The notes beneath the pieces are model-generated. The model saw nothing but the letters and a program-made list of their open reading frames with translations. It did no database searches and was not told the DNA's origin. Shown one piece after another: positions 554 to 15,900 of a stretch of 19,786 nucleotides of DNA. The first letter of the stretch is position 1, and each line of letters starts with the position of its first letter. Source of the DNA: a virus. Lineage: Duplodnaviria > Heunggongvirae > Uroviricota > Caudoviricetes. The stretch is from the IMG/VR virus record IMGVR_UViG_2721755712_000006; one strand, written 5' to 3'. A program made the position numbers and the translations under genes.

Positions 554-612
554 ACAAAACAAACAATAAAAATACATTGATATATAAAGACATTTTCCAG
601 TTACATCTTTGG

Positions 613-637
613 AGATACCCCCAAAAGTACCCCCAAA
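613..637. repeat. Putative integrase arm-type site, left-end copy
   Basis: gatacccccaaaagtacccccaaac closely matches aatacccccataagtacccccat at 18209..18230, same orientation, each just inside an att core copy. Confidence 0.35.
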
Positions 638-895
638 CAATTTTCTCTCACCACCATTTGCACATAAAGCAGCCATGTACAACTGGTAGTTGAACAGGCG
701 GGTAGACCGTTCGTTCAGTAAATACCTGATATTTCCGCCAACGAGAAATTGCGTTGGCTGGCAGAGTGCAAATTTGCACGATAACCTAACCCATTGATTC
801 TTTCGAAAACCTGCAATGCAGGAAGCCGGATAACACCATTTTTATAGCTCCGATCCCTTCAAAGTGAGGGGTAATTTGCCAAAACAGAGAGAGCA

Positions 896-1183
896 TTACT
901 GTCTCTGGCAATCTTTATCGCGATAACGCCTGAAATACCCTCTCGCTTCCTCATCCATACCAAGAGCCGAATGAGTCCGCTTAACTGCCTGTCTTAAATC
1001 TCCGAATCTGTCTGTAGTTGCTGGTGGGCGTGCCGCCTTACGGATACATTCAGAGCGTCTGTTTGCTGCATGTTCACGTTCTTTATCGCCATCTGCCAGC
1101 ATCATGACTTCTGCCCATCGTGCGGCAGCTCTCCGGTATAGCCCTTTTGACTCCAGTTCTTCAGCTTTCCTGTCCCTTATCAT
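896..1183 (-). CDS. Small PerC-family-like regulator (phage/island-associated)
   Basis: 95-aa ORF; N-terminal IRDRKAEELESKGLYRRAAARWAEVM resembles PerC/Pch-type small regulators as I recall them; basic C-terminus. Not verified by search. Confidence 0.4.
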   Translation of the reverse strand: MIRDRKAEELESKGLYRRAAARWAEVMMLADGDKEREHAANRRSECIRKAARPPATTDRFGDLRQAVKRTHSALGMDEEARGYFRRYRDKDCQRQ

Positions 1184-1219
1184 TTCTGCCTCTCAGATTA
1201 TATAGATAAGCAAAAAGGT

Positions 1220-1340
1220 GTTGGTTCAGTTGGTTCAGTTGGTTCAATTTGTAAAGATCGTTGTTTTTATTGTGTTTTTTCTGAAATATTGAACCAACAT
1301 CAACTCATTTTGAACCAACACAGCCCAGCTCTGAACCAAC
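1220..1340. repeat. Iteron cluster A (crr/ori-like): 3 tandem GTTGGTTCA plus 3 inverted TGAACCAAC at 21-bp spacing
   Basis: GTTGGTTCA at 1220..1228, 1229..1237, 1238..1246; TGAACCAAC at 1290..1298, 1311..1319, 1332..1340. Confidence 0.7.
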
Positions 1341-1394
1341 AACACAGCGATAGCTTTGTGATTGGTCCGTTATTTTCTGGCTGATATTTGAGCG

Positions 1395-1425
1395 TATAAC
1401 AGTGTTATACAGTGGTATACTGTAT
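1395..1425 (+). promoter_or_regulatory. Operator-like repeats upstream of the 1443 ORF
   Basis: Tandem TATAACAGTG / TTATACAGTG followed by inverted repeat ATACAG-N7-CTGTAT, just upstream of the start codon. Confidence 0.3.
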
Positions 1426-1442
1426 GGATATTACTCACTGAT

Positions 1443-1883
1443 ATGGTCTTTGCAATGAGCAAATCTAATCTGGTCGCGTTCCGCATCCCATCTGAATTGC
1501 AGGATGAGTTTAATCGGTCTGTTCTCGCTTCTGGAGGGGATAAAACCTCCTGGCTTGTTGATGCGATTCGCATGAAGCTGGGACAGCCGGAAAAGTCTAT
1601 TGATTCACGAATGCTTGGGCTGGTGGAGCGCATGGAAAAAGCCGCTGCGTCGCTTATTGCCGGAAAGCCGAACATCCCACCAAAGCCATATAACGAAACG
1701 GCAGTTATAAAGATCATTGCCGATACCATCCGACAGGGATTTGATAATGGGCGTGTGATAGCGGAACGGCTCAATGAAGCAGGCTACCAAACAAAAGCTG
1801 GTAAAGCGTGGGATAAAGACATTTACAGCGCGTGGAAGCGTCAGGGTAACAATATTAAAAGAATCAATACGCTGCTTCAGTAA
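1443..1883 (+). CDS. Hypothetical DNA-binding protein with N-terminal ribbon-helix-helix-like segment
   Basis: 146-aa ORF (alternative ATG at 1455). N-terminus NLVAFRIPSELQDEFNRSV...WLVDAIRMKL has an RHH (CopG/Arc-like) pattern; C-terminal LNEAGYQTKAGKAWDKDIYSAWKR resembles a recombinase-type DNA-binding helix. No clear SD. Confidence 0.5.
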   Translation: MVFAMSKSNLVAFRIPSELQDEFNRSVLASGGDKTSWLVDAIRMKLGQPEKSIDSRMLGLVERMEKAAASLIAGKPNIPPKPYNETAVIKIIADTIRQGFDNGRVIAERLNEAGYQTKAGKAWDKDIYSAWKRQGNNIKRINTLLQ

Positions 1884-1912
1884 TTGATCAGTGTATAAAT
1901 GATATTTATCGC

Positions 1913-2890
1913 TCAATCGCTCCCTTTCCGCCCTTCAGCTACAGGGTCGTTGTCGGCGATAACAAAACCTAAGTCCTGAGAGAATCTCTCTCGTGGGAAT
2001 CCTTTAGCAGGTAAACCCATTGAATCATATCCACATCCGGGAACATTTGGTTTAGAGTCAATAAGGTCTGCAATTTGCCGAAGCCATGTTGATCCCGGAC
2101 CAAGTCGTTTAACTAAGTACCAGATAATACAGATCGCGCTAAAAATCCTCTCGCAACTCTCTGGATGGAGATTAAGTCCGTCAAAGTATTCATTATCCGG
2201 TACTGGAACTCGGGGATGCTTTCTATTCCATATTCTGGAATGGTGAGCGCAACGATTCCTTATGAGATTAAGGCACTTCAACCATTTTGCAAATGTCTGC
2301 TTATTATCAATGCCAAAACGACGTATAATTTTCCCCTGCATATGACCATTAAGCATCGCATAATATTTAGACATCTGACCAAAATCCCAGGTCTCCACCG
2401 CCACCCAAAATGGAATCTCCTTGCCTTGGCTTCGATGCCATTCAATACAGTCATCTCTGCTTTCGTCTAATTTTACTTTTTGCTTATACACCCAATGCTC
2501 GAAGGCAGATGAGAATTTTGGATTAATGTATTTTGATGACATGTAGGCAAGTGGATCATTGCGACCAACCTCATGCGCGATGACTGAACGAACATGAATC
2601 TCTATTCTTTCGATAGCATCAATCATCAAAAGACGCAGTTTTTTGTCAAAAAGATATAGATCGTACGTCTTCTCGAAACTGGTACCAGCAAGAAATCGGT
2701 CTGTTCTGTACGAAAGACCTTTATCTGTTGTCGCAATAATTCTTGATGGGTACCAAAAACCTGACAATCGATAATATCCAACCTGCGACAGCTTACGTAT
2801 CGCACGATTTCGATCATTGATAATCATGCCACGTTCAAGTAGCAATCCTAGCAATTCGTGATAGTCCTTATGAGGCTTTGCGGCAATCAT
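1913..2890 (-). CDS. Abi_2 family abortive infection protein (AbiD/AbiF-like)
   Basis: Contains the hallmark NRCAHHSRIWN motif plus YYRLSGFWYP near the N-terminus. ORF track starts at a GTG at 2935; ATG at 2890 (MIAAKPHKDYHELL...) fits family N-termini better. Neither start has a good SD. Confidence 0.7.
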   Translation of the reverse strand: MIAAKPHKDYHELLGLLLERGMIINDRNRAIRKLSQVGYYRLSGFWYPSRIIATTDKGLSYRTDRFLAGTSFEKTYDLYLFDKKLRLLMIDAIERIEIHVRSVIAHEVGRNDPLAYMSSKYINPKFSSAFEHWVYKQKVKLDESRDDCIEWHRSQGKEIPFWVAVETWDFGQMSKYYAMLNGHMQGKIIRRFGIDNKQTFAKWLKCLNLIRNRCAHHSRIWNRKHPRVPVPDNEYFDGLNLHPESCERIFSAICIIWYLVKRLGPGSTWLRQIADLIDSKPNVPGCGYDSMGLPAKGFPRERFSQDLGFVIADNDPVAEGRKGSD

Positions 2891-2986
2891 AGTGGCGAAA
2901 CAAAAGATAATAAAAGGCCCGACCGTGAAACTCACATGCCTGAAATCGGCGGCGGAGAAACAGAGGATCGGGCTCGGTTGCCTGTA

Positions 2987-3014
2987 ACTCTATCCGAAGT
3001 TATCCACATGTCAA
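2987..3014 (-). promoter_or_regulatory. Candidate sigma70 promoter for the Abi gene
   Basis: On the minus strand TTGACA (rc of 3009..3014), 16-nt spacer, TAGAGT (rc of 2987..2992), upstream of the Abi start. Confidence 0.25.
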
Positions 3015-3060
3015 TGCACAGTTACTTAGGAAACTAACATAGATACTATCATCACTCACG

Positions 3061-3083
3061 AAAAACCACTATATGTGGTTTTT
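3061..3083. terminator. Hairpin with flanking A/T runs (possible bidirectional intrinsic terminator)
   Basis: aaaaaccac-tatat-gtggttttt perfect 9-bp stem, followed by tattcat on the plus strand. Confidence 0.3.
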
Positions 3084-3358
3084 ATTCATATCGTTATCCA
3101 CTACAGGCTGTGTCAATAACTTTTACCTATTAATTGGGTAATTTCTACATTTTCCTATGCTGGCTAGTTTCTCTACTGAAAAGTTGGCACTCCTTAATCG
3201 CTTTTCGGTTAATACTATCGGTCTTCATATTGCCAGCAGCATACGCCATCCGATAATTTCGATGCTACGCGCGCGTACTTGTCGCAAAATATCAGGCAAA
3301 GGCCAGATTCAGAACGTCGTGATAACCACCAGCACAACATGAGATGTCATGTAACACG

Positions 3359-3366
3359 ATTTATCA
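3359..3366. repeat. IS1 target site duplication, left copy (ATTTATCA)
   Basis: Identical 8-mer directly abuts both IS1 ends (3359..3366 and 4135..4142). Confidence 0.7.
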
Positions 3367-3421
3367 GGTGATGCTGCCAACTTACTGATTTAGTGTATGA
3401 TGGTGTTTTTGAGGTGCTCCA

Positions 3422-3697
3422 GTGGCTTCTGTTTCTATCAGCTGTCCCTCCTGTTCAGCTACTGACGGGGTGGTGCGTAACGGCAAAAGCACCGCCGGAC
3501 ATCAGCGCTATCTCTGCTCTCACTGCCGTAAAACATGGCAACTGCAGTTCACTTACACCGCTTCTCAACCCGGTACGCACCAGAAAATCATTGATATGGC
3601 CATGAATGGCGTTGGATGCCGGGCAACTGCCCGCATTATGGGCGTTGGCCTCAACACGGTTTTACGTCACTTAAAAAACTCAGGCCGCAGTCGGTAA
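3422..3697 (+). CDS. insA: IS1 InsA
   Basis: 91-aa product [43 protein letters not shown]... matches IS1 InsA. Confidence 0.9.
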
Positions 3698-4119
3698 CCT
3701 CGCGCATACAACCGGGCAGTGATGTGATTGTCTGCGCGGAAATGGACGAACAGTGGGGCTACGTCGGTGCTAAATCACGTCAGCGCTGGCTGTTTTACGC
3801 GTATGACAGGATACGGAGGACAGTTGTGGCGCACGTTTTCGGTGAACGCACTCTGGCCACACTGGCGCGTCTTCTGAGCCTGCTGTCGGCCTTTGAGGTC
3901 GTGGTATGGATGACGGATGGCTGGCCGCTGTATGAATCACGCCTGAAGGGAAAGCTGCACGTTATCAGCAAGCGTTACACTCAGCGCATTGAGCGACATA
4001 ATCTGAATCTGAGACAACATCTGGCAAGGCTGGGACGGAAGTCACTGTCGTTCTCAAAATCGGTGGAGCTGCATGACAAGGTCATCGGGCATTATCTGAA
4101 CATAAAACACTATCAGTAA
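3616..4119 (+). CDS. insB: IS1 InsB (transposase InsAB' by -1 frameshift)
   Basis: 167-aa product [27 protein letters not shown]... matches IS1 InsB with several substitutions relative to the canonical sequence as I remember it. Confidence 0.85.
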
Positions 4120-4134
4120 GTTGGAGTCACTACC

Positions 4135-4142
4135 ATTTATCA
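4135..4142. repeat. IS1 target site duplication, right copy (ATTTATCA)
   Basis: See left copy. Confidence 0.7.
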
Positions 4143-4535
4143 CATCAGATACATGTGATTGGTGTACCCGCATAAAACATCGTCATAGCGCGTCCTGTGC
4201 GCATATACGCCGATAATCAACACATCACCACCACTCTGTCTCGTGTAGAGAACAGTTTCATGGTATCCCCCGCCATCGTGTGCGTACTGGTCGGACGTAG
4301 TTGCAAAATTTTTGCAACTGATACCCCTCGCGCGCGTACTGGTCACGAAATTGGTGTTTTGCTGTGGCAGTGATATCAGAAAAATCTTCCTGTTTCACAT
4401 AAAGCGGATATGCGCGTACTGTAACGGCCCCATCAACGGGGATCGGATTTGAAATCCCGACCCAAGCTATGTACCAAATGCCATGTCTTGGATATATGAT
4501 GATTGCCATTCTAAACAACGCTAAAGGGGGTTGGT

Positions 4536-5150
4536 GTGAGCAGAAAAGATACTAAAGAATTGCTAACTATCTGCATGGTGTACTTTTCAATTTATTTTTG
4601 TGCATACATGGTAGTCCCAGATGAGTTTGAACATGGCAGTATTATTTATTCCATAACATTCTATTTTTTAGAGCTAACACCAATTTTGGCTATCCTTTTG
4701 GCAATACATATTTATTTTTCCTTAAAAAAAGAATCGACTAATTGGGAGAAGGTATGGAGAGACAGAGGATTTCTAACATCACCTAAAGATGATGCATATG
4801 AGAGTGATTTTTCTGACTTTATAACAAACTACTACTCCAGCGAACAATTCAAAAATAGACTGTCTGATGTTTGGGAAACAGCAATGTATTCCATAGGGAT
4901 TATATTATTGATACTTACTGGTATCGCTCAATATGTTTTTAACATTGACTTATCATTAAATCCTGAAAATTTAATATCGCCATTGATTTTTGGTGAGATA
5001 TTGATCTTCTCATTCGGAATTTTCTTGAGTGTTGTTCTCTGCTCATTATGCAAACTACTGACTAACAGGTATCCAGGTGAAGCAAGGAGAGCAAGAAAGG
5101 CAAATCCATATTATCTTTTATTTCCTAATGGAGACAGCAGAGATATCTAA
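4536..5150 (+). CDS. AT-rich integral membrane protein (about 4 predicted TM helices), unknown function
   Basis: GTG start preceded by AAAGGGGG SD. Hydrophobic stretches near residues 10-25, 40-60, 115-135, 147-170 (by eye). Roughly 30% GC against ~50% neighbours. Convergent with the 701-aa gene; stops 18 bp apart. Confidence 0.6.
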   Translation: MSRKDTKELLTICMVYFSIYFCAYMVVPDEFEHGSIIYSITFYFLELTPILAILLAIHIYFSLKKESTNWEKVWRDRGFLTSPKDDAYESDFSDFITNYYSSEQFKNRLSDVWETAMYSIGIILLILTGIAQYVFNIDLSLNPENLISPLIFGEILIFSFGIFLSVVLCSLCKLLTNRYPGEARRARKANPYYLLFPNGDSRDI

Positions 5151-5168
5151 GCCATCCATGGCTACCAG

Positions 5169-7274
5169 TTATTGAGCTTCTTTTTGTGATGCCTGTGCGA
5201 CTCTGGTGAGCGATTGTGTGACCGTACTGATCGCTCTGTCATATGCTGTGCTACCTTTTGGCGTATTTGCCAGACGTAACAAGGCATTTCGTATAACAGG
5301 GCTTTCGTATGCCTTCGCTGCTCCGCCTACGGCACCAGCAGCAGGAACAACAAACGCAGCCGTTTTTAGCATCCCCGCTAATACTGCTGCGTTTATGATG
5401 CCACCACCAACTAACAATCCATAAAGCTGCTGACCATTTAAGTTTTGAACGTTCGCTTTTGCCGCGTGTCTTGTATCGTTGAGGTATTTAATAACGCCGT
5501 CCAGTTCCTTTCCATGTACGCCTTTAAAGAAAGTTGCTGATTGCTTCCTGTTCCGGTGTAACGCATTAATAAACTTCTCAACACTGATATTTCCAGACGG
5601 ATCAGTCGCCTTATCTACAGCATTCTGAACTATGGCTGCTCGTGCGTTTTGCCTACCATTGTCATCCAGAAGCCTGTAAAGCTGAGAACGTTCTGATGGG
5701 CTTTGGCTAAAAACGAGTTTTGTTACATCCTCAGGCGTGGCCTTGCCGCTGGCTATTGCCTTTTGAACGCGCGTTCTTCCCATCATGTCATTGAATTTAG
5801 ACCATGAGCGATCAACCCTTGCCATATTAATGGCTTCGTCTGCTCCAAGATTTTTGGCTACGGCTTTTTTCATATCCGCCGTATATGCCTTGTAGATAAT
5901 ATCGCTGGCTTTCTGGAGCGTATCTTTATCAACAGTGTCAGATGACGCCATAAATCGCTTTCGAAGATCGGTTCTGTTTTCCCTCGCCAGACGCAGGTCA
6001 TTTGGTCCGCTGGTGATATCGTCTTTAAATTGCTGCAAGACTTTTACCGCGGCTCTATCCTGAGATTTGCCCGGGCGGCTTAACACGGCAATCTGATTGT
6101 CGATAGCTTTTACCGTGTTTGAGAGATCGACAGGGGTATCCCCCATAGCGTCAATTATGCGGTTATATCGCTTTCCTGCTGCCTCAATGAATTTTTGTTG
6201 CCCTTTAGTCGCAGATTCATAAAGCTGTTTATCAGAAATGCCACCCAGACCATCGCTAAATGTTCTGACTAAATTTTCTCGTGCTTGTTGTTGATTCAGC
6301 CGATTCTTACCGGTTCCAAAAAAAGGAACTCTTTCGCCTAATGTCTGAGCCTGACTCTGCATAAAGGTTTTATCTTTCAGCATGTCACTGGTCATTAACG
6401 GCAGATTTCTTTCCGATGCAAAGTCGACAGCAGCCTTTGCTTCAGGCGACATATCACCACGAACAGCCCTCGAAACCGCACTCGCTGTATTTTCCAGCCC
6501 CTTACCAATACCACCAATGCCAGCAGAAATTACCGTTTGTAACGGATCAATATCTTCTCCACCAGCAAGGCTGGTGGCTCCCTGTAGTGCTAAATCTGTA
6601 GCTGCTGATTTTCCTATGGCACTAAGCACCGTTCCAGCCCTGCCCGCTGGTGTAAACGCCAACGCATTAGCAAGAAACGAGGTCAGGTCTTGCGGTGATA
6701 AACCCGGCTTGTTCAGGGCATAATCACCTGATGGCAGAGAAACGATAGTATTCCCCTTCTCATCCTGCCTTAATGTCGCCCCCATTCCCTGAAGAATCTT
6801 TTCCTGAGACGCGTCAGAGCCGAAAAGTTGAGACCATCCAGCCTTTAGGGCATCCATGCTTAGTGAGTTCAATTCTGGGGCAGAGGCGACATTTTGCAGT
6901 CTCTCCATCTCTGGAGTCATTCGGCTTTCGCCTGTTATAGCATCGCGCATCGCAGCCCCAAGACTGGCTCCCTGTTCTGCTGAACGCTCAAGCCCCTCTC
7001 TTTGCTGAGTAGCTAACTTTGCATACCCTGACGCAAGAGAATTATCAGATGATGTATGTTGAATATTTTGAGTTGCTGATTGGGATCGGTCTATTTCATT
7101 CGTTGATGGTAGTGGATAGGCAGCATAAAAAGCCTGCTTAGCCTGCTCTACACTTTCTCCGGCTTGCGGGGCCACGACTTCATTGAAGTATTGCTCCTGA
7201 GCCTGCGCTTTTTGTTCTGGTGCTAACGCCTGATACTGTGGAGAGGCGATAACATCTTTCCATGCTTTAGCCAT
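5169..7274 (-). CDS. Large hypothetical protein (701 aa), Ala/Gln/Gly/Ser-rich helical, C-terminal Gly/Ala-rich hydrophobic segment
   Basis: Long ORF; ATG overlaps the stop of the upstream gene (TAATG); GGGGTG SD. Hydrophobic segment LYGLLVGGGIINAAVLAGMLKTAAFVVPAAGAVGGAAKAY near residues 617-656. No family recognised. Confidence 0.7.
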   Translation of the reverse strand: MAKAWKDVIASPQYQALAPEQKAQAQEQYFNEVVAPQAGESVEQAKQAFYAAYPLPSTNEIDRSQSATQNIQHTSSDNSLASGYAKLATQQREGLERSAEQGASLGAAMRDAITGESRMTPEMERLQNVASAPELNSLSMDALKAGWSQLFGSDASQEKILQGMGATLRQDEKGNTIVSLPSGDYALNKPGLSPQDLTSFLANALAFTPAGRAGTVLSAIGKSAATDLALQGATSLAGGEDIDPLQTVISAGIGGIGKGLENTASAVSRAVRGDMSPEAKAAVDFASERNLPLMTSDMLKDKTFMQSQAQTLGERVPFFGTGKNRLNQQQARENLVRTFSDGLGGISDKQLYESATKGQQKFIEAAGKRYNRIIDAMGDTPVDLSNTVKAIDNQIAVLSRPGKSQDRAAVKVLQQFKDDITSGPNDLRLARENRTDLRKRFMASSDTVDKDTLQKASDIIYKAYTADMKKAVAKNLGADEAINMARVDRSWSKFNDMMGRTRVQKAIASGKATPEDVTKLVFSQSPSERSQLYRLLDDNGRQNARAAIVQNAVDKATDPSGNISVEKFINALHRNRKQSATFFKGVHGKELDGVIKYLNDTRHAAKANVQNLNGQQLYGLLVGGGIINAAVLAGMLKTAAFVVPAAGAVGGAAKAYESPVIRNALLRLANTPKGSTAYDRAISTVTQSLTRVAQASQKEAQ

Positions 7275-8740
7275 TAATCACCCCATAGTGAAGAAAAGTT
7301 ACTGCTGGCTGCTGGCTGTGATACCTGCTCAGATTGCGGCAATGTCTGCGACGAAGAAGCAGTTCCTCTGTCAACTGCTGAAATAACCCGCAAAGCATCA
7401 TAAGTTCGACCAGAAGCAGCTTTCAGCGAATTGAACTGGTTTTCCATCTTCCGGCGCTTGGTATCAATGGTTTTTGTGGAATCACCAGGCTGAGGGAAAT
7501 ACATTTGATAATATTTGGACATTTCAGCTGGTAGGATAGATGCCCCTGTTTCCTGACGGAGTATTGCCATTATTGCGTCATTAGCATTAACAACGTATTG
7601 CTGCTCTGCTGGGCTGAGCGTTAAGTTAGCCAGCGTCCCATTACCCAAAGCATTATTAATGATCGCCACTCGCTGTGGGCTAAGCTGGTCTTTCAGTGTA
7701 TCTATTGAATCAAGAGCATCCCTAACCCTGTATGCAAATCCAGCAGCTTTTTTAGCCCCTTCTGGCGACTTTTCCATGATCTTTTGGGCTGTTGGCAAAG
7801 CTATTGGACGAAACCCATCTCCAGATATTGGCTGGTTTAGTTTTCCCTGCTCTTCACTTCCGTCTGTGTAGTATTTTGTGACAGTGCCATCATCGTTTTC
7901 TCTAACACTCATTAATTTTTTGGCGTTTGTATTAATTCCAGCCGCTGCCGCAAATGCCGCCGCCCCCTCTGGATCCGCCTTTAACATTTGAGCGTACTGA
8001 TTGTAATTCTGCATTGCTGCTGTTGGTGCATATGCTGACGTTAACGCATTTGCTCGGCTAATATCCTGCCCTCTCGCCTGAAGTGCTTCGCCAGCCTGAT
8101 TGCTGCGGATTGTCTCTGCCAACTTGCCACGCTCAATATCCCGACCTTCCATTTGATCTTTGATATCGAAATACTTCTCATGACCGAGAGAAAACAGCGC
8201 CAGATTACCTGCGAAATGCTGGAAGCCCTGCGGGTCATTAACCTGCATTTCAGCAATAGTTTCTGGAGGGATACCTAAACGACGCATCTCCTGCTCATTA
8301 TCCATCATGAACCTGCCAAATGCGCCCTGACCAAGCGATGAGGCTACCTGTGCTTTGAGCGCCAGATTGCCATAATCATCCCTTTGAGCATCATCGACAT
8401 AACTCATCCCTTTACGGACTTCCTCAAACTCTTCTGGGAATGCTGTAATAAGATTACGCATCTGCTCCCTGTCACCGGACGCATAAGCATCTGCATAAGC
8501 TTTCTGGAATGCCGCTTTACGCTCCTGCTGTTGCTGCTGCTTATAAATATCAGCAACGCCAGCCAGACCACGAAGACCTGTCAGAGCAACGTTATTTGCA
8601 CCTGAGCGAGCCAGTTCATTGTTTTCGCGGATCAGACCAAGCGTTGCGTTAATGTCGCTTGCCTTTGGCGCATTCTCATTTTGCGTACCGATGCCAGCCA
8701 GAAAACCACCAGAATTAATACCCTGTTGCCACGTAGCCAT
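7274..8740 (-). CDS. Large hypothetical protein (~488 aa from ATG at 8740; 492 aa from GTG at 8752), low-complexity Ala/Gln-rich
   Basis: Long ORF translationally coupled to the 701-aa gene; poly-Gln run and Ala-rich tracts; no catalytic motif recognised. Confidence 0.7.
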   Translation of the reverse strand: MATWQQGINSGGFLAGIGTQNENAPKASDINATLGLIRENNELARSGANNVALTGLRGLAGVADIYKQQQQQERKAAFQKAYADAYASGDREQMRNLITAFPEEFEEVRKGMSYVDDAQRDDYGNLALKAQVASSLGQGAFGRFMMDNEQEMRRLGIPPETIAEMQVNDPQGFQHFAGNLALFSLGHEKYFDIKDQMEGRDIERGKLAETIRSNQAGEALQARGQDISRANALTSAYAPTAAMQNYNQYAQMLKADPEGAAAFAAAAGINTNAKKLMSVRENDDGTVTKYYTDGSEEQGKLNQPISGDGFRPIALPTAQKIMEKSPEGAKKAAGFAYRVRDALDSIDTLKDQLSPQRVAIINNALGNGTLANLTLSPAEQQYVVNANDAIMAILRQETGASILPAEMSKYYQMYFPQPGDSTKTIDTKRRKMENQFNSLKAASGRTYDALRVISAVDRGTASSSQTLPQSEQVSQPAASSNFSSLWGD

Positions 8741-8758
8741 TGATTTACCCACGTCCAG

Positions 8759-8917
8759 TTAAAGTGTAAGCCAGCGCCTTATCCATTAATCCCCGAGCAA
8801 TTTCGTGGATCGTTGGCGCAACTCCTACCTCTGATTTTTTACGCTGCTCCTCCTGAATTTTCTTTATCGCTTCCATTTGCTTCTCACTTATCAATACTGG
8901 CTTTACTGAAATAGCCA
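8759..8917 (-). CDS. Small protein (52 aa), possibly ribbon-helix-helix DNA-binding; first gene of the cargo operon
   Basis: Not in the ORF track (under 60 aa). ATG at 8917 with strong SD AAGGGGG; product MAISVKPVLISEKQMEAIKKIQEEQRKKSEVGVAPTIHEIARGLMDKALAYT; stop 6 nt before the next gene's GTG. Confidence 0.45.
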
Positions 8918-9011
8918 TAACGCCCCCTTAGAACTGTATAAAACAACAGTCATTATAGTTTCATAAAACGCAACATTCATCATTGTGATTGCAAAATATG
9001 AAACAAATAGC

Positions 9012-9044
9012 ACAAAAAAATGCCACCGTTCAGTAGCTGGTGGC
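9012..9044 (-). terminator. Intrinsic terminator for the 152-aa gene
   Basis: On the minus strand: GCCACC-11 nt loop-GGTGGC (rc of 9022..9044) followed by a T7 run (rc of 9014..9020). Confidence 0.5.
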
Positions 9045-9098
9045 ATCGTTCTGTATGTCAGGTTTTGACAGTTTTTTTATGGACTCTAAAAACTATAT

Positions 9099-9557
9099 TT
9101 ATGGAGTCGCATTACTCTTCATGGCGTGAGCTTTCCTGTTCTCTCTTTGTTCCTGGTTCCATGGATAAGTGTAATTGCCACCAGCAAAGACCATATTGAT
9201 TTTGTGAGGAACCATTAAAGCGATATCAGCACTCATGTCACTGAATGAAACACAGTGCAGACGTTCAAGCCATTTGTATGCTGCTGCCGCTTCTCCCCAC
9301 AAATTAATCCCTGCAAGTTCAACAATATCTCTGATGGAGCAGATATCAACCATCCCGTTAACGCCTGTAAAACGGCGTTTAAAGTCGCCAAGATACTTTC
9401 TGAAAAGAGTTGCTTTCATTGGTTCAGAAAGGTCTATGTATGGGAACACAACCACATCAAGCAGCATCTCCCTTCTGTTGTTCATCGGTATTACAGATGG
9501 CAAATCGGATACTTTGCCAAATACATGATGAAAAGCCTTTGCGATTATCTTCATCAT
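9099..9557 (-). CDS. Hypothetical protein (~152 aa), orphan cargo gene next to the iteron array
   Basis: ORF MMKIIAKAFHHVFGKVSDLP...; GGGAGA SD upstream of tandem ATGs; own terminator downstream. No family recognised. Confidence 0.5.
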   Translation of the reverse strand: MMKIIAKAFHHVFGKVSDLPSVIPMNNRREMLLDVVVFPYIDLSEPMKATLFRKYLGDFKRRFTGVNGMVDICSIRDIVELAGINLWGEAAAAYKWLERLHCVSFSDMSADIALMVPHKINMVFAGGNYTYPWNQEQRENRKAHAMKSNATP

Positions 9558-9643
9558 CAATCTCCCACTGAAACCAGTGATGTGGTGTTCAGATTTCGTA
9601 AAACACTCTCTAATGCCAGCCAGATGTTGTGCTCATCAATTCA

Positions 9644-9754
9644 GTCACGTTGTGTTGGTTCAAAATGCCGTGTTGTTGGTTCAGTGTTGGTTCAATAAAA
9701 AGAATAAAATCCTTATAAAACAATACTCTTTACAAATTGAACCAACTGAACCAA
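9644..9754. repeat. Iteron cluster B (putative replication origin downstream of the primase gene)
   Basis: GTTGGTTCA at 9644..9652, 9665..9673, 9676..9684; three tandem TGAACCAAC at 9728..9754. Segment 9717..9761 is the exact reverse complement of 1213..1257. Confidence 0.7.
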
Positions 9755-9789
9755 CTGAACCAACACCTTTTCTACGCACATGAAGAAGC

Positions 9790-12546
9790 TCATTCTTCAG
9801 ATGAGTTGTAATCTCCTGGCTGGTAATTGAGTACATAAACGTTTATTTGTCGTCCCTGAATACGTGGTGATTTTCTTTGGTATCCACGACCGCTGTTTGG
9901 TGGGGTTAGCATCCCGGCTTTTTTCAACACTTCAGCAAACTGTTTTGCGTTGAAACCACATGCGATCTCCTTTTCAAATGTGGCCGGGAATGTGTAGAAA
10001 ATCATTGGGCTTTCGTCATGTTCTCCACGCTGACGGTATCCGGCTAAATCTTTGATGGGCAAATCTGCCGGGCTGTATGGAAATGGTGCAAAACGGCTAA
10101 GCCCATAGGCATTAAGAAATGCCTCCGTTTGTTCAATAATCTGCTGATGCTCTTTGTTACCTGTGCCGAACTCGCGCAACCATGCGTTATAGCTGTGCTG
10201 TATCGCATCACGGCATGTCTGAGCATCCCAGCCTGTTACAACCTCGCCTAACAACAATGCGGCCTCCAGAATGGCAAATCGCGCGGCTACACGGTGAACC
10301 TGCTCACCATAATCGGATGGGATCAGGCTTCTCCATCTGCTTTCGCAGTCACGAACAGTTTTAATAGCCTGTTGCTGGTGGTCTGCCAGCCATTTAATCC
10401 ACTCACGCCCGGACGCGCCGTGGTGATGCTGGTAAGCGTCTTTCAGTGCGTCTGCGTGCTGTTTTCCGTTCTGGTAATCGTGAAAGCGTACTGCTTTACT
10501 CAACGGAATATTCAGCAGTCGCACCATTTGCCCGGCTTTGGTTTTTCGCCCGGAAGTAGCGATAAATGTTTCTAAATCCATTTCTCCGGTGCTGATTGCC
10601 ACTGTACGCCAGCGTTTTAGATCCCGGTTTCCACCATCTTTAGCGCCTTGCAGTTTCCCTACACCGTTAAATAACGCATAGGCAGACTGTGAAACACTGA
10701 CAGGATCAGCGCCCTGACCAACTTCATCAAGCGGCATTAGTCCGTCATTGTGGGCGGCAGCTTCATTTGCCAGCCCCAGCGCGGTTCCGTACCACGTCAG
10801 CCGCAGTAAATCAGGGTTGCCGTATAAGCTGCTCGCCACGTTTGCCGTGGTGGTCTTACCTGCGCTCGACTGCTCATAGAAATGAATGCCGAACCCGTCA
10901 GCGCCCACCAGCCCAATCAATGGCGCTGCCAGTGCTGCGCCGATCCCGGTCATCATTGAATAGTTACCAAAGGCCAGACGCGCCACGTTATCACGCCAGC
11001 TTTTCGCGCTCCCTGAGACGGTATATCCGGCTGCGGCTGAGCTTCTCCCGCTGAACAGCACAGGATTTTCAGGTGTTCCGATGATTTCCCCATCAGGCAT
11101 GATGTACGCTCCGCATTGCCAGCCAGTGGCATGAGCAACACGCCACAATTCACGAGAGCCACTGCGTTGTAGCCAGTCTGCCAGTATTGCTCTGAGGCTG
11201 CTTTTGGTCGTGACATTTACCCCACCAGCTTTAAGTGTGCGCCATCCTTCACGTTCACCAATATCAGCCAGTGGAATGGCAGCGGTTGTCGGCGTTTCAG
11301 AACCAAACGACAGCCAGCGAAGAATGAGATACTGGTCTTTATCGTCTCTGCCAGTACCGATAACGCTTAACGGAGAACATAACCAGCTTTCGTTATTGAT
11401 GATTTCTCCACTCTGGCTGTCAGCTCTCGGAGATACCCAATAAATACCATCCTCGCGGCTTTCTATTCTTGGTTTCAGTGGGTCGGTATCCATAACCTTA
11501 AAATCGCTTCCCTCAATGGTCTGTGGCTCCTGTTTCACGCCATTACCCTGTGGTTGGTACATTGACTTATTGAACGCTTCTGTGGCGCATTTAATGCCGT
11601 GTTTTTGGTGGTAATCATTCCAGTCTGCTTTGTGATCTGTCGGGGGTAATGCCACCCATCCAGAAACAGATAAAGCTGCCTTTTCTGCTGCTATTCTCCC
11701 CGTGTTTTGTCTTCCTTCGCTGTGGTCGTTATCCGCAGCAATGATGATTTGTGCTGAAGGAAATTTATCCCGCAGTACCTGGGCGACATATAACAGGTTC
11801 CCGGCATCAATCGCCGCCACTGTCAGCGCCTCTGGACGAATTAAATGGGCAGATAATGCCGTTGCCAGCCCTTCTGCGATTAAGATGCTCTGTGTTGTTT
11901 CTGGTGCGTTTATGGCGTGATATGCCCCCCGCTTTGCTGAACCTGTCAGGAGTCTTTTTTCACCATGTGAGGTAATAGTCTGTGCTGCTGTTACTGCGCC
12001 GGATTTATCCACCAGCGCCAGCAACAGAGATCCATCGGGCAACACGGGGAATGTAAAATCACCTACCCCTTTCGCAACCAGATAATCAGATTTGCCGTTT
12101 ACAGCCTTTCTGCGCATGTCATCAAACTGACGGGAAAACGTATCCCGTCTTTGTTGTTCGTCCTTCTCTGCCCTTTTCAGGCGCTCCTGTTCGCGTCGCT
12201 GGCGCTCGGTTTCCAGTTGTTCCCGTTTCTGGCTGGTGGCTTCTGGTGTTTCCGTTGTCCGGTAATCAATACCCAGAACATCAGCGGCAAGAAGCGCCGC
12301 CTCTGTTGTGTCGCAGTTATTTACGCGTTTAATTAAATCCAGCCCATCACCAGCGCCGCACTGATTACAGATGAAGCTACCGCGCCCGTTGTCATCGAAC
12401 CGGAATCGATCTTTGCCCCCACATGCAGGGCAGGGAGCATGACGGCGCGGAGAGTCAGGGACATTTATGTTCAGGCAGCCCAGCACATGAGGCCAGTTGT
12501 TTTCAGACGCACTGATAACCTGACGGATAAGATCAATGTTTCGCAT
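9790..12546 (-). CDS. P4 alpha-like primase-helicase (Zn ribbon, TOPRIM, P-loop NTPase)
   Basis: 918 aa. Cys4 ribbon CPACGG...FICNQCG; TOPRIM-like IIIAADNDH with upstream ILIAEGLATALS; Walker A SSAGKTTT. Confidence 0.9.
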   Translation of the reverse strand: MRNIDLIRQVISASENNWPHVLGCLNINVPDSPRRHAPCPACGGKDRFRFDDNGRGSFICNQCGAGDGLDLIKRVNNCDTTEAALLAADVLGIDYRTTETPEATSQKREQLETERQRREQERLKRAEKDEQQRRDTFSRQFDDMRRKAVNGKSDYLVAKGVGDFTFPVLPDGSLLLALVDKSGAVTAAQTITSHGEKRLLTGSAKRGAYHAINAPETTQSILIAEGLATALSAHLIRPEALTVAAIDAGNLLYVAQVLRDKFPSAQIIIAADNDHSEGRQNTGRIAAEKAALSVSGWVALPPTDHKADWNDYHQKHGIKCATEAFNKSMYQPQGNGVKQEPQTIEGSDFKVMDTDPLKPRIESREDGIYWVSPRADSQSGEIINNESWLCSPLSVIGTGRDDKDQYLILRWLSFGSETPTTAAIPLADIGEREGWRTLKAGGVNVTTKSSLRAILADWLQRSGSRELWRVAHATGWQCGAYIMPDGEIIGTPENPVLFSGRSSAAAGYTVSGSAKSWRDNVARLAFGNYSMMTGIGAALAAPLIGLVGADGFGIHFYEQSSAGKTTTANVASSLYGNPDLLRLTWYGTALGLANEAAAHNDGLMPLDEVGQGADPVSVSQSAYALFNGVGKLQGAKDGGNRDLKRWRTVAISTGEMDLETFIATSGRKTKAGQMVRLLNIPLSKAVRFHDYQNGKQHADALKDAYQHHHGASGREWIKWLADHQQQAIKTVRDCESRWRSLIPSDYGEQVHRVAARFAILEAALLLGEVVTGWDAQTCRDAIQHSYNAWLREFGTGNKEHQQIIEQTEAFLNAYGLSRFAPFPYSPADLPIKDLAGYRQRGEHDESPMIFYTFPATFEKEIACGFNAKQFAEVLKKAGMLTPPNSGRGYQRKSPRIQGRQINVYVLNYQPGDYNSSEE

Positions 12547-12558
12547 TCTGGCCCCCGT

Positions 12559-13161
12559 TTAGTGCGTCACTGGTGCTTCTGGGATGCCGTTTTCGTTTAG
12601 TTCGGCAATAAAGCTGTTGTGAAGATCGGCAAGCACTTCTCGCCCAAACGAAGTGAGTGTTCCCTGTTCGACATCGAACATGTTGCTGTAAAAAATGATG
12701 GCATTCTTTGTTCCGACATCAACACCATATTTCTCGATCATTGCGCCCTCAATGTTGTTTGCCATAGCGAGGCGCTCTGCTACTGGATACAGCGGCATGG
12801 CGACGATGCCATTGGAATAAACAGAAACCACGGAATGATTGCCACTGTCATCAATAATGCTGACGGTGCCGTTTCCCTTTCTCATTTCATTGATGAATGC
12901 TGTTGCTATCAGCCAGCGCCACATAATCACGTGATGCTGTGATGTGTAATCGAAATATCCCTGGTTGCCGCCACTGGCAATAGCGAGATGTATAAACATG
13001 CCTTCATCTGGTTTATCGTCATAATCCCCGGCATCCAGACGATTTACGGCATCAATATATGAGACGGTCTCAACGCGTTCTGTCATGCCATCGTTGCTGC
13101 GGTGCATGATGTTTACGCCGTCAGGCGTTGCTTCTGCATGGAAGGTTAAGAAATTATTCAT
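12559..13161 (-). CDS. Hypothetical protein (~200 aa) immediately upstream of the primase
   Basis: ATG at 13161 (MNNFLTFHAEATPDG...) with GAGG SD, overlapping the stop of the upstream gene by 8 nt; the ORF track's longer 235-aa form begins inside the upstream gene. Confidence 0.55.
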   Translation of the reverse strand: MNNFLTFHAEATPDGVNIMHRSNDGMTERVETVSYIDAVNRLDAGDYDDKPDEGMFIHLAIASGGNQGYFDYTSQHHVIMWRWLIATAFINEMRKGNGTVSIIDDSGNHSVVSVYSNGIVAMPLYPVAERLAMANNIEGAMIEKYGVDVGTKNAIIFYSNMFDVEQGTLTSFGREVLADLHNSFIAELNENGIPEAPVTH

Positions 13162-13375
13162 GTTTCGCCTCGCCTGAATGATTCTGTAACTCATATTTGC
13201 CCAACAATTCGTCTGCTTCCTGAATAGCTTCTGGTACGCCATTGAGCAGTGACATAACCGCGCCAATCATTAACTTGTCTCTGTTGCTGGGGCTGGCCCC
13301 TTCAAGCCAGAACCCTAAAACAGTCTGAACCTGTTCGATGCGACATTGCGCTTCAATGAGCTGGATGTTGGTCAT
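13154..13375 (-). CDS. Small hypothetical protein (73 aa)
   Basis: ORF in an overlapping-stop/start chain (ATGA overlap at 13372..13375). Confidence 0.45.
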   Translation of the reverse strand: MTNIQLIEAQCRIEQVQTVLGFWLEGASPSNRDKLMIGAVMSLLNGVPEAIQEADELLGKYELQNHSGEAKHE

Positions 13376-13635
13376 TTCGCACTCTCCACATCGATTAAAC
13401 TGATATCTATCAGGGAGGTAACTTTTTGTAGCCAGCTATTGATTACTGTCGCCTGTTCCCCTCCCACCGAGGGAATAATCTCATTCATCACATGAACCAG
13501 ACCTGTGCGCGCTCTGGTAAGCCGTTCAGTCGCGCAATCTGCGGGAGTGAATGTGTCTGGATATGGCTCTTCGCGCCCCAGCAATGATTCAATTTCCAGC
13601 TCACACGGATGACGATAAATTAAGTTGATATTCAT
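13372..13635 (-). CDS. Small hypothetical protein (87 aa)
   Basis: ORF in the same coupled chain (ATGA overlap at 13632..13635). Confidence 0.45.
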   Translation of the reverse strand: MNINLIYRHPCELEIESLLGREEPYPDTFTPADCATERLTRARTGLVHVMNEIIPSVGGEQATVINSWLQKVTSLIDISLIDVESAK

Positions 13636-13826
13636 TTTTCACCCCCAAGAATTACCAGCTCGGCACGGGCATCGTTAACCAAAGATGAGCACGCTTTAAT
13701 CGCATCCACGACATCAGCAGCGTCCATTTCTTCAGCCGAAAGACTGACAGCAACCAGGACAGCCGCTGCTTGCTCGATTAATTGAAGTGCGGACGTAAGG
13801 CGAGGGGTATTAATTGAGTTATTCAT
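13632..13826 (-). CDS. Small hypothetical protein (64 aa)
   Basis: ORF in the same coupled chain; overlaps upstream gene by 8 nt. Confidence 0.4.
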   Translation of the reverse strand: MNNSINTPRLTSALQLIEQAAAVLVAVSLSAEEMDAADVVDAIKACSSLVNDARAELVILGGEK

Positions 13827-14470: not shown

Positions 14471-14524
14471 AGGACGCCAATCCCGGCACCCGTTTTATGA
14501 GGTGCCTTATAACCATAAACCGTG

Positions 14525-15888: not shown

Positions 15889-15900
15889 TTTCAGTCTCCG

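What the first reader, a model, noticed from the sequence alone, without database searches (positions are those of the whole stretch)
1913..2935. Abi_2 (AbiD/AbiF-like) abortive-infection gene in the satellite cargo
The protein carries the diagnostic R-x-x-A-H-H-x-R-x-W-N motif (NRCAHHSRIWN) of the Abi_2 family. It sits on a P4-like element, consistent with satellites acting as carriers of anti-phage genes. It is convergent with the RHH gene at 1443..1883 and has a candidate promoter and an upstream hairpin at 3061..3083. Start codon is ambiguous (GTG 2935 versus ATG 2890).
Basis: partly seen in the sequence, partly recalled or inferred. Interest (0 to 1): 0.55.

Follow-up and report, generated by a model that had tools for sequence, protein, structure and literature searches.

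The report
AbiF-type RNase toxin with RNA antitoxin

Summary
ORF 1913..2935(-) encodes an Abi_2 protein (Pfam 2.3e-52; PADLOC AbiD 8e-58) with an invariant HEPN R-x4-H motif (RNRCAH). It matches the solved PbAbiF-ncRNA complex 8VZ6 by sequence (4e-36) and by fold (TM 0.75/0.82).

- The start codon is ATG 2890 (325 aa), not GTG 2935.
- The host element is an EcCIMP1-like PICI at thrW/proA, not P4-like. The abi cassette (1854-3197) fills a variable cargo slot.
- The neighbouring 146-aa gene is island backbone. Its RHH fold is unverified.
- The hairpin at 3061-3083 lies upstream of the promoter.

Main addition: a sigma70 promoter (3014-2987) drives a ~75-nt structured RNA (2982-2904). A covariance model built here finds this RNA once per locus in 73 of 80 homologous loci. 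It is always on the abi strand and immediately upstream of the gene. 91% of cells pair and 11 of 14 pairs show compensatory changes.

Rfam's abiF model (RF03085) does not detect this RNA. My model does align, weakly, to the validated PbAbiF antitoxin RNA, through a shared CCCG stem, an unpaired CCUCU and a U-rich tail.

Best reading: an AbiF-like type III toxin-antitoxin defence module with an expanded variant of the antitoxin RNA. RNA-protein binding, toxicity and phage resistance are all untested.

The parts
1913..2890 (-). abi CDS (325 aa), an AbiF/AbiD-family HEPN RNase toxin. The true start is ATG 2890.
   Evidence: Pfam Abi_2 2.3e-52; PADLOC AbiD 8.4e-58. PDB 8VZ6 PbAbiF matches at 4e-36 by sequence. 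Foldseek gives E=3e-16, TM 0.75/0.82, rmsd 3.0 A, on an AF2 model with pLDDT 91.9. The N-terminus MIAAKPHK is conserved in homologues.
2225..2260 (-). HEPN catalytic motif R211-N-R-C-A-H216 followed by H-S-R-I-W-N222
   Evidence: R211, N212, H216, H217, R219, W221 and N222 are invariant across 34 homologues, including PbAbiF relatives. They align with R210/H215 of PbAbiF, whose double mutant is inactive according to PMC12373285.
2904..2982 (-). Conserved structured RNA at the 5' end of the transcript: the candidate AbiFr-like antitoxin and leader. P1 is 2973-2966 paired with 2924-2917. An unpaired CUC(UG) lies at 2965-2961. A long two-part P2 lies at 2962-2927. A U-rich tail lies at 2916-2904.
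   Evidence: CM R1 hit of 53.3 bits, E=9e-12. On the 57-sequence alignment, 91.2% of cells pair against 75.9% in shuffles and at most 51.5% with slid partners, and 11 of 14 pairs show compensatory change. The MFE fold agrees. GTG 2935 falls inside P2.
2987..3014 (-). Sigma70-type promoter: -35 TTGACA 3014-3009, 16-nt spacer, -10 TAGAGT 2992-2987. The predicted transcription start is about 2980-2978.
   Evidence: Consensus scan scores 10/12. An equivalent promoter (at least 9/12) whose -10 ends 2-5 nt before the RNA model start occurs in 63 of 73 homologous loci.
3061..3083 (-). It is terminator-like and lies upstream of the abi promoter.
   Evidence: Seen in the sequence and in the MFE and centroid folds. 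The core ACATATAGTG is conserved only in the closest loci L002, L003 and L004. The only Rfam overlap is a non-significant lactis-plasmid hit (E=3.1).
3121..3134 (-). Conserved 14-nt box ATTAATAGGTAAAA at the upstream edge of the cassette. Function unknown.
   Evidence: The box AT(T/A)(G/A)ATAG(G/T)TAAAA occurs upstream of abi in Enterobacterales, Aeromonadaceae and Pasteurellaceae loci. Nucleotide similarity to the Raoultella locus L002 begins at 3134.
1854..3197 (-). The abi cargo cassette: box, hairpin, promoter, RNA and abi. It occupies a variable slot of the island.
   Evidence: Backbone identity to island variant L084 is 97.6% up to 1853 and 98% from 3198. L084 carries ImmA/IrrE plus a hypothetical gene in this slot. 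EcCIMP1 of E. coli MP1 resumes similarity at 3203 and has no abi.
1443..1883 (+). 146-aa gene (probable start ATG 1455) convergent with abi. It is island backbone, not a cassette partner. Its last ~10 codons lie within the cassette-specific sequence.
   Evidence: It is 92% identical in the abi-less island L084, diverging only at the C-terminus. It has 373 homologues across Enterobacterales but is present in only 2 of 80 abi loci. There is no family or fold assignment.
554..18342 (.). EcCIMP1-like PICI integrated at tRNA-Thr (thrW) next to proA. attL core is 537-553 and attR core is 18342-18359.
   Evidence: Empty site in NZ_CP182374 (H107). The tRNA 3'-end repeat TGGTGC(C)GATAATAGGA is present at both ends. 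Window 9596-19679 is 96-99% identical to EcCIMP1. The gene set is int, AlpA-like excisionase, AntA/B, Ash and TOPRIM-DUF927 primase.

Best explanation
Window 1854-3197 is a self-contained AbiF-like type III toxin-antitoxin defence cassette, carried as cargo by an EcCIMP1-like phage-inducible chromosomal island.

Proposed mechanism:
1. A constitutive sigma70 promoter (3014-2987) starts a transcript whose first ~75 nt fold into a two-helix RNA: a G+C-rich P1 closing an internal loop that holds an unpaired CCUCU(G), plus a variable hairpin P2.
2. P1 followed by the U-rich tail probably terminates most transcripts. The small RNA would then be in excess, and only read-through reaches abi. The abi ATG lies 14 nt downstream and has no Shine-Dalgarno sequence.
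3. The 325-aa Abi protein is a HEPN RNase that dimerises to form an R-x4-H active site.
4. The RNA binds each monomer and blocks that site, as in PbAbiF-AbiFr (8VZ6) and RCd22-AbiFCd.
5. When phage infection disturbs the RNA:protein balance, the freed RNase cleaves cellular and phage RNA, arrests growth and aborts the infection.

Shown here: family membership, fold, catalytic motif, existence and structure of the RNA, its strict association with the gene, conservation of the promoter, and cargo status.

Inferred by homology: RNA-protein binding, antitoxin action, termination, toxicity and phage resistance.
For: Protein:
- Pfam Abi_2 2.3e-52 and PADLOC AbiD 8.4e-58.
- phmmer to 8VZ6_A gives 4e-36 over residues 4-301.
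- The AF2 model (pLDDT 91.9) has 8VZ6 as its only significant PDB fold match (E=3e-16, TM 0.75/0.82).
- R211 and H216 are invariant.

RNA:
- The element is visible in nearly all 78 upstream regions.
- On the MAFFT alignment A3, 91.2% of cells pair, 134 cells show double changes, and 0 of 500 shuffles reach the observed values; slid controls give at most 51.5%.
- CM R1 finds one hit per locus in 73 of 80 loci plus the window. All hits are on the abi strand and just upstream of the gene. Seventeen of these loci were not in the seed. There was one stray hit in 522 kb searched on both strands.
- Five Pasteurellaceae loci keep the architecture with an entirely different P1 sequence.
- The promoter is positionally conserved in 63 of 73 loci.

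Link to validated systems:
- The contig encoding a protein 100% identical to PbAbiF carries RF03085 (58.5 bits) at the equivalent position. R1 aligns to that same site (13.4 bits, E=0.03) through CCCG / CCUCU / A.GU / CGGG / U-tail.
- The literature establishes AbiF plus an upstream ncRNA as a type III TA (PMC12373285; PMC13064643; PMC12737573).

Cargo status.
Against: - No experiment was done on this locus or on any member of this proteobacterial clade.
- Rfam RF03085 does not hit the window at E<=10, nor 20 related loci at the gathering threshold. Homology of the RNA to AbiFr rests on architecture and a weak CM alignment (E=0.03).
- The fold of the window RNA alone is not exceptional (z=-1.23).
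- P1 plus the U-tail is not a canonical simple terminator hairpin and was not flagged by the terminator scan.
- The window has one RNA copy, whereas RCd22 has two motifs.
- The phage trigger is unknown. AbiFCd itself has no demonstrated anti-phage phenotype.
Confidence: 0.75

Rival explanations
1. The upstream element acts only in cis, as a transcription attenuator or translational leader that keeps abi expression low. This would resemble the structured abiD1 leader, whose translation is activated by a phage protein. On this view it is not a trans-acting, protein-binding antitoxin.
For: The RNA sits at the extreme 5' end of the abi transcript and ends in a stem plus U-rich tail 14 nt before the ATG. 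Many homologues have TTG or GTG starts and weak or absent SD sequences. RCd22 also acts in cis through premature termination. The AbiD1 precedent is cited.
Against: The invariant unpaired nucleotides (CCUCUG, UAYG, GGCCUUCU in 49 of 78 loci) are conserved far beyond what a terminator needs. They correspond to the CCUCU of the abiF motif, which occupies the protein surface in 8VZ6 and RCd22. Cis and trans roles coexist in RCd22, so this is more a subset of the best explanation than an alternative to it.
Confidence: 0.12
2. A classical single-protein Abi. The protein alone senses phage and kills the cell, and the upstream conservation is only promoter or UTR sequence.
For: PADLOC and DefenseFinder model AbiD as a single gene. 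Historical lactococcal AbiD and AbiF were described as single genes.
Against: Covariation shows selection for RNA base-pairing, not for DNA sequence. Lactococcal AbiD/F members need their native upstream region and are now regarded as protein-plus-RNA systems. The closest solved homologue is an RNA-bound dimer.
Confidence: 0.05
3. The module serves mainly as an addiction or stabilisation system for the PICI, or as a tool the satellite uses against its helper. It would not be a general host anti-phage defence.
For: TA modules on mobile elements commonly stabilise them, and AbiFCd was proposed to stabilise its prophage. The cassette is found only within this island family, at three different chromosomal sites. 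EcCIMP1 affects superinfection by its helper Kapi1.
Against: The slot is variable. EcCIMP1 itself and L084 lack abi, so abi is not needed for island maintenance. It is present in only 73 of 5426 E. coli genomes, which fits accessory defence cargo. The molecular mechanism would be the same either way.
Confidence: 0.15
4. The convergent 146-aa 'RHH' protein is the regulator or antitoxin partner of Abi.
For: It is adjacent and convergent. Its N-terminus has a beta-alpha-alpha pattern, and one database source names a homologue 'Arc-like DNA binding domain protein'. It accompanies abi in the Raoultella locus L002.
Against: It is 92% identical in an island that lacks abi. It is absent from 78 of 80 abi loci. 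It is widespread as a backbone gene with 373 homologues. L002 shares the island's iteron region, so the linkage there reflects a shared backbone.
Confidence: 0.03

Closest known systems
PbAbiF-AbiFr (Prevotellaceae AbiF type III TA; PDB 8VZ6; Zilberzwige-Tal et al., Cell 2025, known to me only through PMC12373285 and PMC12737573)
   Same: About 300-325-aa Abi_2 HEPN protein with the same fold (TM 0.75/0.82) and the same R-x4-H residues. A cis-encoded small RNA lies immediately upstream of the start codon. That RNA has a CCCG...CGGG closing stem, an unpaired CCUCU and a U-rich tail.
   Different: Protein identity is only 28-33%. The RNA here has a real 7-8-bp (in the window, longer and two-part) hairpin P2 after CCUCUG, in place of the 3-bp AGC/GCU mini-helix. 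RF03085 does not detect it, and R1 detects PbAbiFr only weakly (E=0.03). There are no biochemical data for this clade.
RCd22-AbiFCd of Clostridioides difficile prophage phi027/phiC2 (PMC12373285)
   Same: Promoter, then ncRNA, then terminator-like stem, then abiF. The toxin has the HEPN motif RNQCAH against RNRCAH here. It is carried on a mobile element.
   Different: RCd22 carries two RF03085 motifs plus a separate terminator; here there is one expanded motif. Protein identity is about 29%. It sits in a prophage lysis module, not a PICI cargo slot.
Lactococcal AbiD / AbiD1 / AbiF (plasmid-borne Abi_2 founders)
   Same: Same Pfam family and PADLOC AbiD model. The upstream region is required, and the proteins are toxic without it.
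   Different: Gram-positive plasmids. AbiD1 is controlled by activation of translation by a phage protein. The lactococcal upstream RNA was not compared here.
EcCIMP1 (E. coli MP1 PICI; PMC11773190)
   Same: Same integration site (thrW/proA). The backbone is 96-99% identical from the primase to the integrase. It has the same iteron clusters, a PerC-family gene and P22-type ejection-protein genes.
   Different: EcCIMP1 has no abi cassette and no 146-aa gene, and its authors found no known defence system. The window's island fills the slot with the AbiF-like module.
P4-like satellites and their defence hotspots
   Same: An integrative satellite with integrase, an AlpA-type regulator, a primase and an Ash-family gene; two inverted iteron clusters reminiscent of P4 ori/crr; variable defence cargo.
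   Different: No Psu, Sid or Delta matches. The primase-helicase is TOPRIM+DUF927 rather than the P4 alpha type. The helper of the closest characterised relative is a P22-like podovirus, not P2.

Membership tests
Pfam Abi_2 (PF07751) / PADLOC AbiD | Significant full-length match to the family profile | tested here: met
   178.4 bits against a cut-off of 25.6, covering profile positions 2-184 of 184. PADLOC AbiD 194 bits.
HEPN superfamily RNase | R-phi-x3-H catalytic motif (R-x4-6-H) in the last helix of the four-helix core | tested here: met
   RNRCAH is present, and R211, N212 and H216 are invariant in 34 homologues. It aligns to PbAbiF RNSCCH.
AbiF/AbiD fold (PbAbiF, 8VZ6) | Whole-protein structural similarity to the solved AbiF | tested here: met
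   Foldseek E=3.1e-16, probability 1.00, TM 0.75/0.82, rmsd 3.0 A over 312 columns. It is the only PDB hit with E<0.001.
AbiF-type type III toxin-antitoxin | Conserved structured ncRNA encoded immediately upstream on the same strand | tested here: met
   R1 hit at 2904-2982(-). One hit per locus in 73 of 80 loci, with covariation support.
AbiF-type type III toxin-antitoxin | The RNA binds the toxin and neutralises it; the toxin alone is growth-inhibitory | not testable with these tools
   Requires expression, rescue and co-purification experiments.
Rfam abiF RNA (RF03085) | Match to the covariance model at or above the gathering score (37 bits) | tested here: not met
   No RF03085 hit in window 2850-3400 at E<=10, none in the whole window at E<=1, and none in 20 related loci at the gathering threshold. 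Positive controls did hit: phiC2 37.6 bits and the PbAbiF locus 58.5 bits.
Rfam abiF RNA (RF03085) | Shared architecture: G+C-rich closing stem, unpaired CCUCU, U-rich tail, directly 5' of abiF | tested here: inconclusive
   R1 aligns to the RF03085 sites of L085 and L086 at 13.4-13.7 bits, E about 0.03. The middle helix differs.
Abortive-infection defence system | Reduces phage plating or burst through death or arrest of the infected cell | not testable with these tools
   No phenotype data exist for this gene.
P4-like satellite | Core genes psu, sid, delta and a P4 alpha-type primase | tested here: not met
   Pfam and PHROG scans of the island ORFs gave no Psu, Sid or Delta matches. The primase is Zn-ribbon + Toprim_3 + DUF927. 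Very small ORFs were not all scanned.
PICI (EcCIMP1 type) | Integrase, AlpA-type regulator and primase/rep module; about 15-18 kb; tRNA or fixed att site; homology to a verified PICI | tested here: met
   The backbone is 96-99% identical to EcCIMP1.
PICI (EcCIMP1 type) | Excision and transfer induced by a helper phage | not testable with these tools
   Shown for EcCIMP1 with Kapi1 in PMC11773190, not for this variant.
Ribbon-helix-helix (for the 146-aa neighbour) | Match to an RHH/Arc/CopG profile or fold | tested here: inconclusive
   No Pfam hit with E<0.01, and no NCBIfam or PDB hit. In the AF2 model the N-terminal 70 residues have pLDDT of about 40-60. Foldseek best E=0.69. Only a source label 'Arc-like' on one homologue supports it.

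The most novel reading that the evidence does not exclude
The ~55-80-nt RNA defined here would be a previously uncatalogued, expanded class of AbiF antitoxin RNA. Its signature is CAAU-N-G, then P1, then unpaired CCUCUG, then a hypervariable hairpin P2, then UAYG, then P1', then CCUUCUU. It accompanies most proteobacterial (and some cyanobacterial) Abi_2 genes. Its hypervariable P2 would give each toxin a cognate, orthogonal RNA partner, or would act as a sensor that a phage factor displaces. That would be a further intermediate on the AbiF-to-Cas13 road, here mobilised as cargo in a defence hotspot of EcCIMP1-type PICIs.
Probability: 0.3. Interest if true: 0.55.

Novelty: new variant of a known kind. 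Interest (0 to 1): 0.42.

Why it matters
- It changes the annotation from a single 'Abi family protein' to a two-part protein-RNA system with defined coordinates. This matters to anyone cloning or deleting the gene, because the ORF without its RNA is likely to be toxic.
- It shows that Rfam's abiF model misses the RNA partner of a large proteobacterial Abi_2 clade, and it supplies a seed alignment and model for that RNA.
- It locates a variable cargo slot (abi cassette against ImmA/IrrE pair against other genes) in the EcCIMP1 PICI family. The authors of EcCIMP1 found no known defence system there.
- It explains why many database entries for these proteins carry spurious N-terminal extensions that read through the RNA.
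- The core biology (an Abi_2 HEPN toxin on a mobile element) is expected, so the advance is incremental.

Tried and rejected
- GTG 2935 as the start: rejected (homologue N-termini, profile alignment, position inside RNA helix P2).
- Rfam abiF RF03085 in the window and in 20 loci: no hit. The best Rfam overlap upstream was lactis-plasmid RNA at 18.3 bits, E=3.1, over 3018-3107, which is not significant and was not pursued.
- Single-sequence folding of 2880-3130 and of 2904-2982: z-scores of -0.45 and -1.23, uninformative.
- The 146-aa neighbour as partner or RHH: it is a backbone gene and the fold is unverified.
- P4-like classification: rejected.
- Close homologues in sequenced phages: none. 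All 78 phage hits are below 60% identity and from Gram-positive phages or unannotated faecal contigs.
- The Cell 2025 AbiF paper could not be read. I therefore cannot say whether it already describes this RNA class.
- The terminator scan did not flag P1 plus the U-tail, nor the 3061-3083 hairpin.
Full report
**1. Observation**

The minus strand carries an open frame from 2935 to 1913: 340 aa from GTG, or 325 aa from ATG 2890. It matches Pfam Abi_2 over the full profile (E=2.3e-52). It also matches PADLOC AbiD (8.4e-58) and PHROG 2158 'abortive infection resistance protein'. Together with the preceding R211 it forms the HEPN R-x4-H signature RNRCAH.

RefSeq annotates the identical gene as 'Abi family protein', starting at the ATG. 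The gene occurs in 73 of 5426 complete E. coli genomes, always at 99% identity or more.

**2. Start codon**

Sixteen homologues of 52-74% identity begin MIAAKPHK or an equivalent at the position of ATG 2890. The 15-residue GTG extension has no conserved counterpart. The PADLOC profile begins at that methionine. GTG 2935 also lies inside a conserved RNA helix, described below. The CDS is therefore 1913-2890.

**3. What the protein is**

phmmer against PDB sequences finds one real hit, 8VZ6 chain A 'Abi family protein', at E=4e-36 over residues 4-301. An AlphaFold2 model built on 34 homologues has pLDDT 91.9 and pTM 0.86. Its only significant PDB fold match is again 8VZ6, 'PbAbiF dimer bound to ncRNA' (Foldseek E=3e-16, TM 0.75/0.82, rmsd 3.0 A). 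R211, N212, H216, H217, R219, W221 and N222 are invariant across homologues, including relatives of PbAbiF.

The literature now treats the Abi_2/AbiD/AbiF group as HEPN RNase toxins of type III toxin-antitoxin systems. Their antitoxin is a small RNA encoded just upstream, and the group is regarded as ancestral to Cas13. The relevant sources are:
- RCd22-AbiFCd in C. difficile (PMC12373285).
- PbAbiF-AbiFr (Zilberzwige-Tal 2025, as summarised in PMC12737573).
- A review of the lactococcal systems (PMC13064643).

**4. The RNA partner**

I fetched 80 loci encoding homologues of 40-68% identity from Gamma-, Beta- and Deltaproteobacteria, cyanobacteria and others. I then compared the 450 nt upstream of each gene.

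Nearly all share the same layout:
- a TTGACA-17-TAnnnT promoter;
- then CAAYNGNGCCCnnnCCYCUG;
- then a hairpin of variable sequence;
- then UAYG-nnnGGGCCUUCUU, ending 15-60 nt before the start codon.

GGCCTTCT alone occurs in 49 of 78 upstream regions.

On a MAFFT alignment of 57 non-identical elements (A3) I scored a two-helix structure, P1 of 6 bp and P2 of 8 bp. Results:
- 91.2% of cells form standard pairs, against 75.9% in column shuffles and at most 51.5% when the partners are slid.
- 11 of 14 pairs show compensatory double changes, in 134 cells.
- 0 of 500 shuffles reach the observed values.

RNAalifold independently predicts the same helices.

A covariance model (R1) was searched over the window and all 80 loci, 522 kb on both strands:
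- It gives one hit per locus in 73 loci plus the window.
- Every hit is on the abi strand and immediately upstream of the gene.
- Seventeen of these loci were not in the seed.
- There was a single stray hit, at E=0.13.

Of the seven loci without a hit, two have no upstream DNA. The other five are Pasteurellaceae. These keep the architecture but with a completely different P1 sequence, for example GGCGUAGC/GCUACGUC. That is further natural covariation.

The window's copy is 2982-2904 (53.3 bits, E=9e-12). P1 is GCCCGAUC/GGUCGGGC (2973-2966 paired with 2924-2917). CUC is unpaired. P2 is long and two-part. The tail is CCUUUUAUUAUCUU, and the ATG lies 14 nt beyond it with no Shine-Dalgarno sequence.

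A sigma70-like promoter scoring at least 9/12, whose -10 ends 2-5 nt before the model start, is present in 63 of 73 loci. In the window it is TTGACA 3014-3009 and TAGAGT 2992-2987. The RNA is therefore the extreme 5' end of the transcript, as with RCd22.

**5. Relation to the known abiF RNA**

Rfam RF03085 does not hit the window, even at E<=10 on a 551-nt slice. It does not hit 20 related loci at the gathering threshold either. It does hit the positive controls: phage phiC2 at 37.6 bits, and the contig encoding a protein 100% identical to PbAbiF at 58.5 bits.

The RF03085 consensus is CCCGCC-A-AGC-CUCUCAACGAU-GCU-CAAAUC-GGCGGG-U.

R1 aligns to exactly that site in the PbAbiF locus, at 13.4 bits and E=0.03. 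The matched features are CA.U.G, the CCCG stem, CCUCU, A.GU, CGGG and the U-rich tail. R1 also finds an element at 20.7 bits (E=1.4e-4) upstream of a 35%-identical homologue on a faecal contig.

My reading is that the RNA here is a diverged, expanded relative of AbiFr. It shares the closing stem and the unpaired CCUCU. It differs in having a true hairpin P2 where RF03085 has a 3-bp mini-helix.

This homology is an inference. Membership in RF03085 was tested and not met.

I could not read the Cell 2025 paper. No open-access paper I could search describes this variant.

**6. Context**

The window is an E. coli chromosome segment running from paoD and a lysR fragment to proA.

The island spans about 554-18342, between an 18-nt repeat of the tRNA-Thr 3' end at 537-553 and 18342-18359. 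An empty site exists in NZ_CP182374.

Its genes are an integrase, an AlpA-type excisionase, AntA/B, DUF4222, Ash (with C4 and isrK RNAs), a TOPRIM+DUF927 primase, P22 gp20- and gp16-type ejection proteins, and PerC. No Psu, Sid or Delta matches were found.

From the primase to proA the window is 96-99% identical to EcCIMP1 of E. coli MP1. EcCIMP1 is a PICI shown experimentally to be excised and transferred by the P22-like phage Kapi1. Its authors found no known defence system on it (PMC11773190). The element is therefore an EcCIMP1-like PICI, not P4-like.

Comparison with EcCIMP1 and with another island variant, L084, puts the backbone breakpoints at 1853/1854 and at 3197/3198-3203. The 1,344-bp cassette between these points holds only the conserved box, the hairpin, the promoter, the RNA and abi. 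L084 carries an ImmA/IrrE gene plus a hypothetical gene in the same slot.

The same cassette sits in the same island family at two other chromosomal sites. An IS1 (3367-4134, 8-bp target duplication) lies in backbone DNA 350 nt upstream of the promoter. It does not touch the cassette.

**7. The neighbour and the hairpin**

The 146-aa gene is convergent with abi, but it is backbone:
- It is 92% identical in the abi-less L084, diverging only in the last ~10 codons.
- It has 373 homologues in Enterobacterales.
- It is present in only 2 of 80 abi loci, and one of those (L002) shares the island's iteron region.

No profile, PDB sequence or fold search supports or excludes an RHH fold.

The hairpin at 3061-3083 is real. 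It lies upstream of the conserved promoter, and only the nearest relatives keep it. It is most simply an insulating terminator, but this was not tested.

**8. Mechanism and confidence**

I commit, at about 0.75, to an AbiF-type type III toxin-antitoxin module. A constitutive promoter makes the RNA in excess. Read-through produces a little HEPN RNase. [quoted passage not shown] Phage infection upsets the balance and the freed RNase arrests the cell.

Shown here: the protein family, fold and catalytic residues; the RNA's existence, structure and strict linkage to the gene; the conserved promoter; and the cassette's cargo status.

Inferred: RNA-protein binding, antitoxin action, termination, toxicity, the trigger, and any phage-resistance phenotype.

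**9. Verdict**

The gene is an ordinary, already-annotated member of a known defence family. The added value is in four points:
- the corrected start codon;
- the corrected host element;
- the definition of a PICI cargo slot;
- above all, the conserved RNA partner that the current Rfam model does not recognise.

Novelty: a new variant of a known kind. Interest is moderate, at about 0.4.

Noticed in passing
window 1213-1348 and 9651-9771: There are two clusters of GTTGGTTCA iterons in inverted orientation (55-nt arms, 95% complementary). One lies just downstream of the TOPRIM/DUF927 primase gene and the other between PerC and the 146-aa gene. Together they bracket the 8.4-kb cargo and ejection-protein segment. 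This recalls P4 ori/crr. The same pair is present in EcCIMP1.
   Followed up: partly
window 5169-8752 (-) and 4536-5150 (+): The PICI carries P22 gp20-type (Inj_translocase, 5.5e-84) and gp16-type (PHROG 770 'DNA transfer protein') ejection-protein genes. Related islands also have a DUF2824 gene. Next to them is a 204-aa protein with a weak SieA-like superinfection-exclusion match (phrog_7745, E=4e-4). A satellite of P22-like phages that supplies its own ejection proteins beside a possible injection blocker deserves a separate look.
   Followed up: partly
window 14278-14505 (-): C4 antisense RNA (79.5 bits) and isrK (67.1 bits) lie in tandem within or upstream of the ash-family gene. This looks like a P1/P7-type antisense immunity module on the island.
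   Followed up: no
window 3121-3134 (-); L002, L003, L004, L008, L010, L066, L068: A 14-nt box AT(T/A)(G/A)ATAGGTAAAA lies upstream of abi promoters in Enterobacterales, Aeromonadaceae and Pasteurellaceae, at different distances from the gene. In the window it marks where similarity to the Raoultella cassette begins. It could be a cassette boundary or recombination site, or an operator.
   Followed up: partly
window 3367-4134: An IS1 with an 8-bp target duplication is inserted in backbone DNA between the abi cassette and the 204-aa gene. It is absent from otherwise identical islands such as that of strain E70.
   Followed up: yes
L085 970-2019; P0121, P0003 and others: Many database gene calls for AbiF homologues are extended at the N-terminus through the upstream RNA. 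PbAbiF, for example, is called as 349 aa against 300 aa in the solved structure, and the extension covers the RF03085 site. This is the same artefact as GTG 2935 here.
   Followed up: partly
L005, L018, L023, L026 and many Pseudomonas loci, about 3001: Many homologues appear to start at TTG or GTG. The window subclade has no Shine-Dalgarno sequence, whereas other clades keep a conserved CAUGGAA just upstream. This suggests deliberately weak or regulated translation of the toxin. My start assignments are only approximate.
   Followed up: no
NZ_CP148430.1 7682-7873 (hit H40): A 12-kb record holds only the last 192 bp of abi at 100% identity, under a feature annotated 'phage DNA ejection protein'. 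This suggests a deletion or rearrangement that fused the cassette's end to the ejection-protein region.
   Followed up: no
window 615-635 and 18209-18229: A 21-nt direct repeat ATACCCCCA(A/T)AAGTACCCCCA lies near both island ends, just inside attL and attR. These are probably integrase arm-type sites.
   Followed up: no
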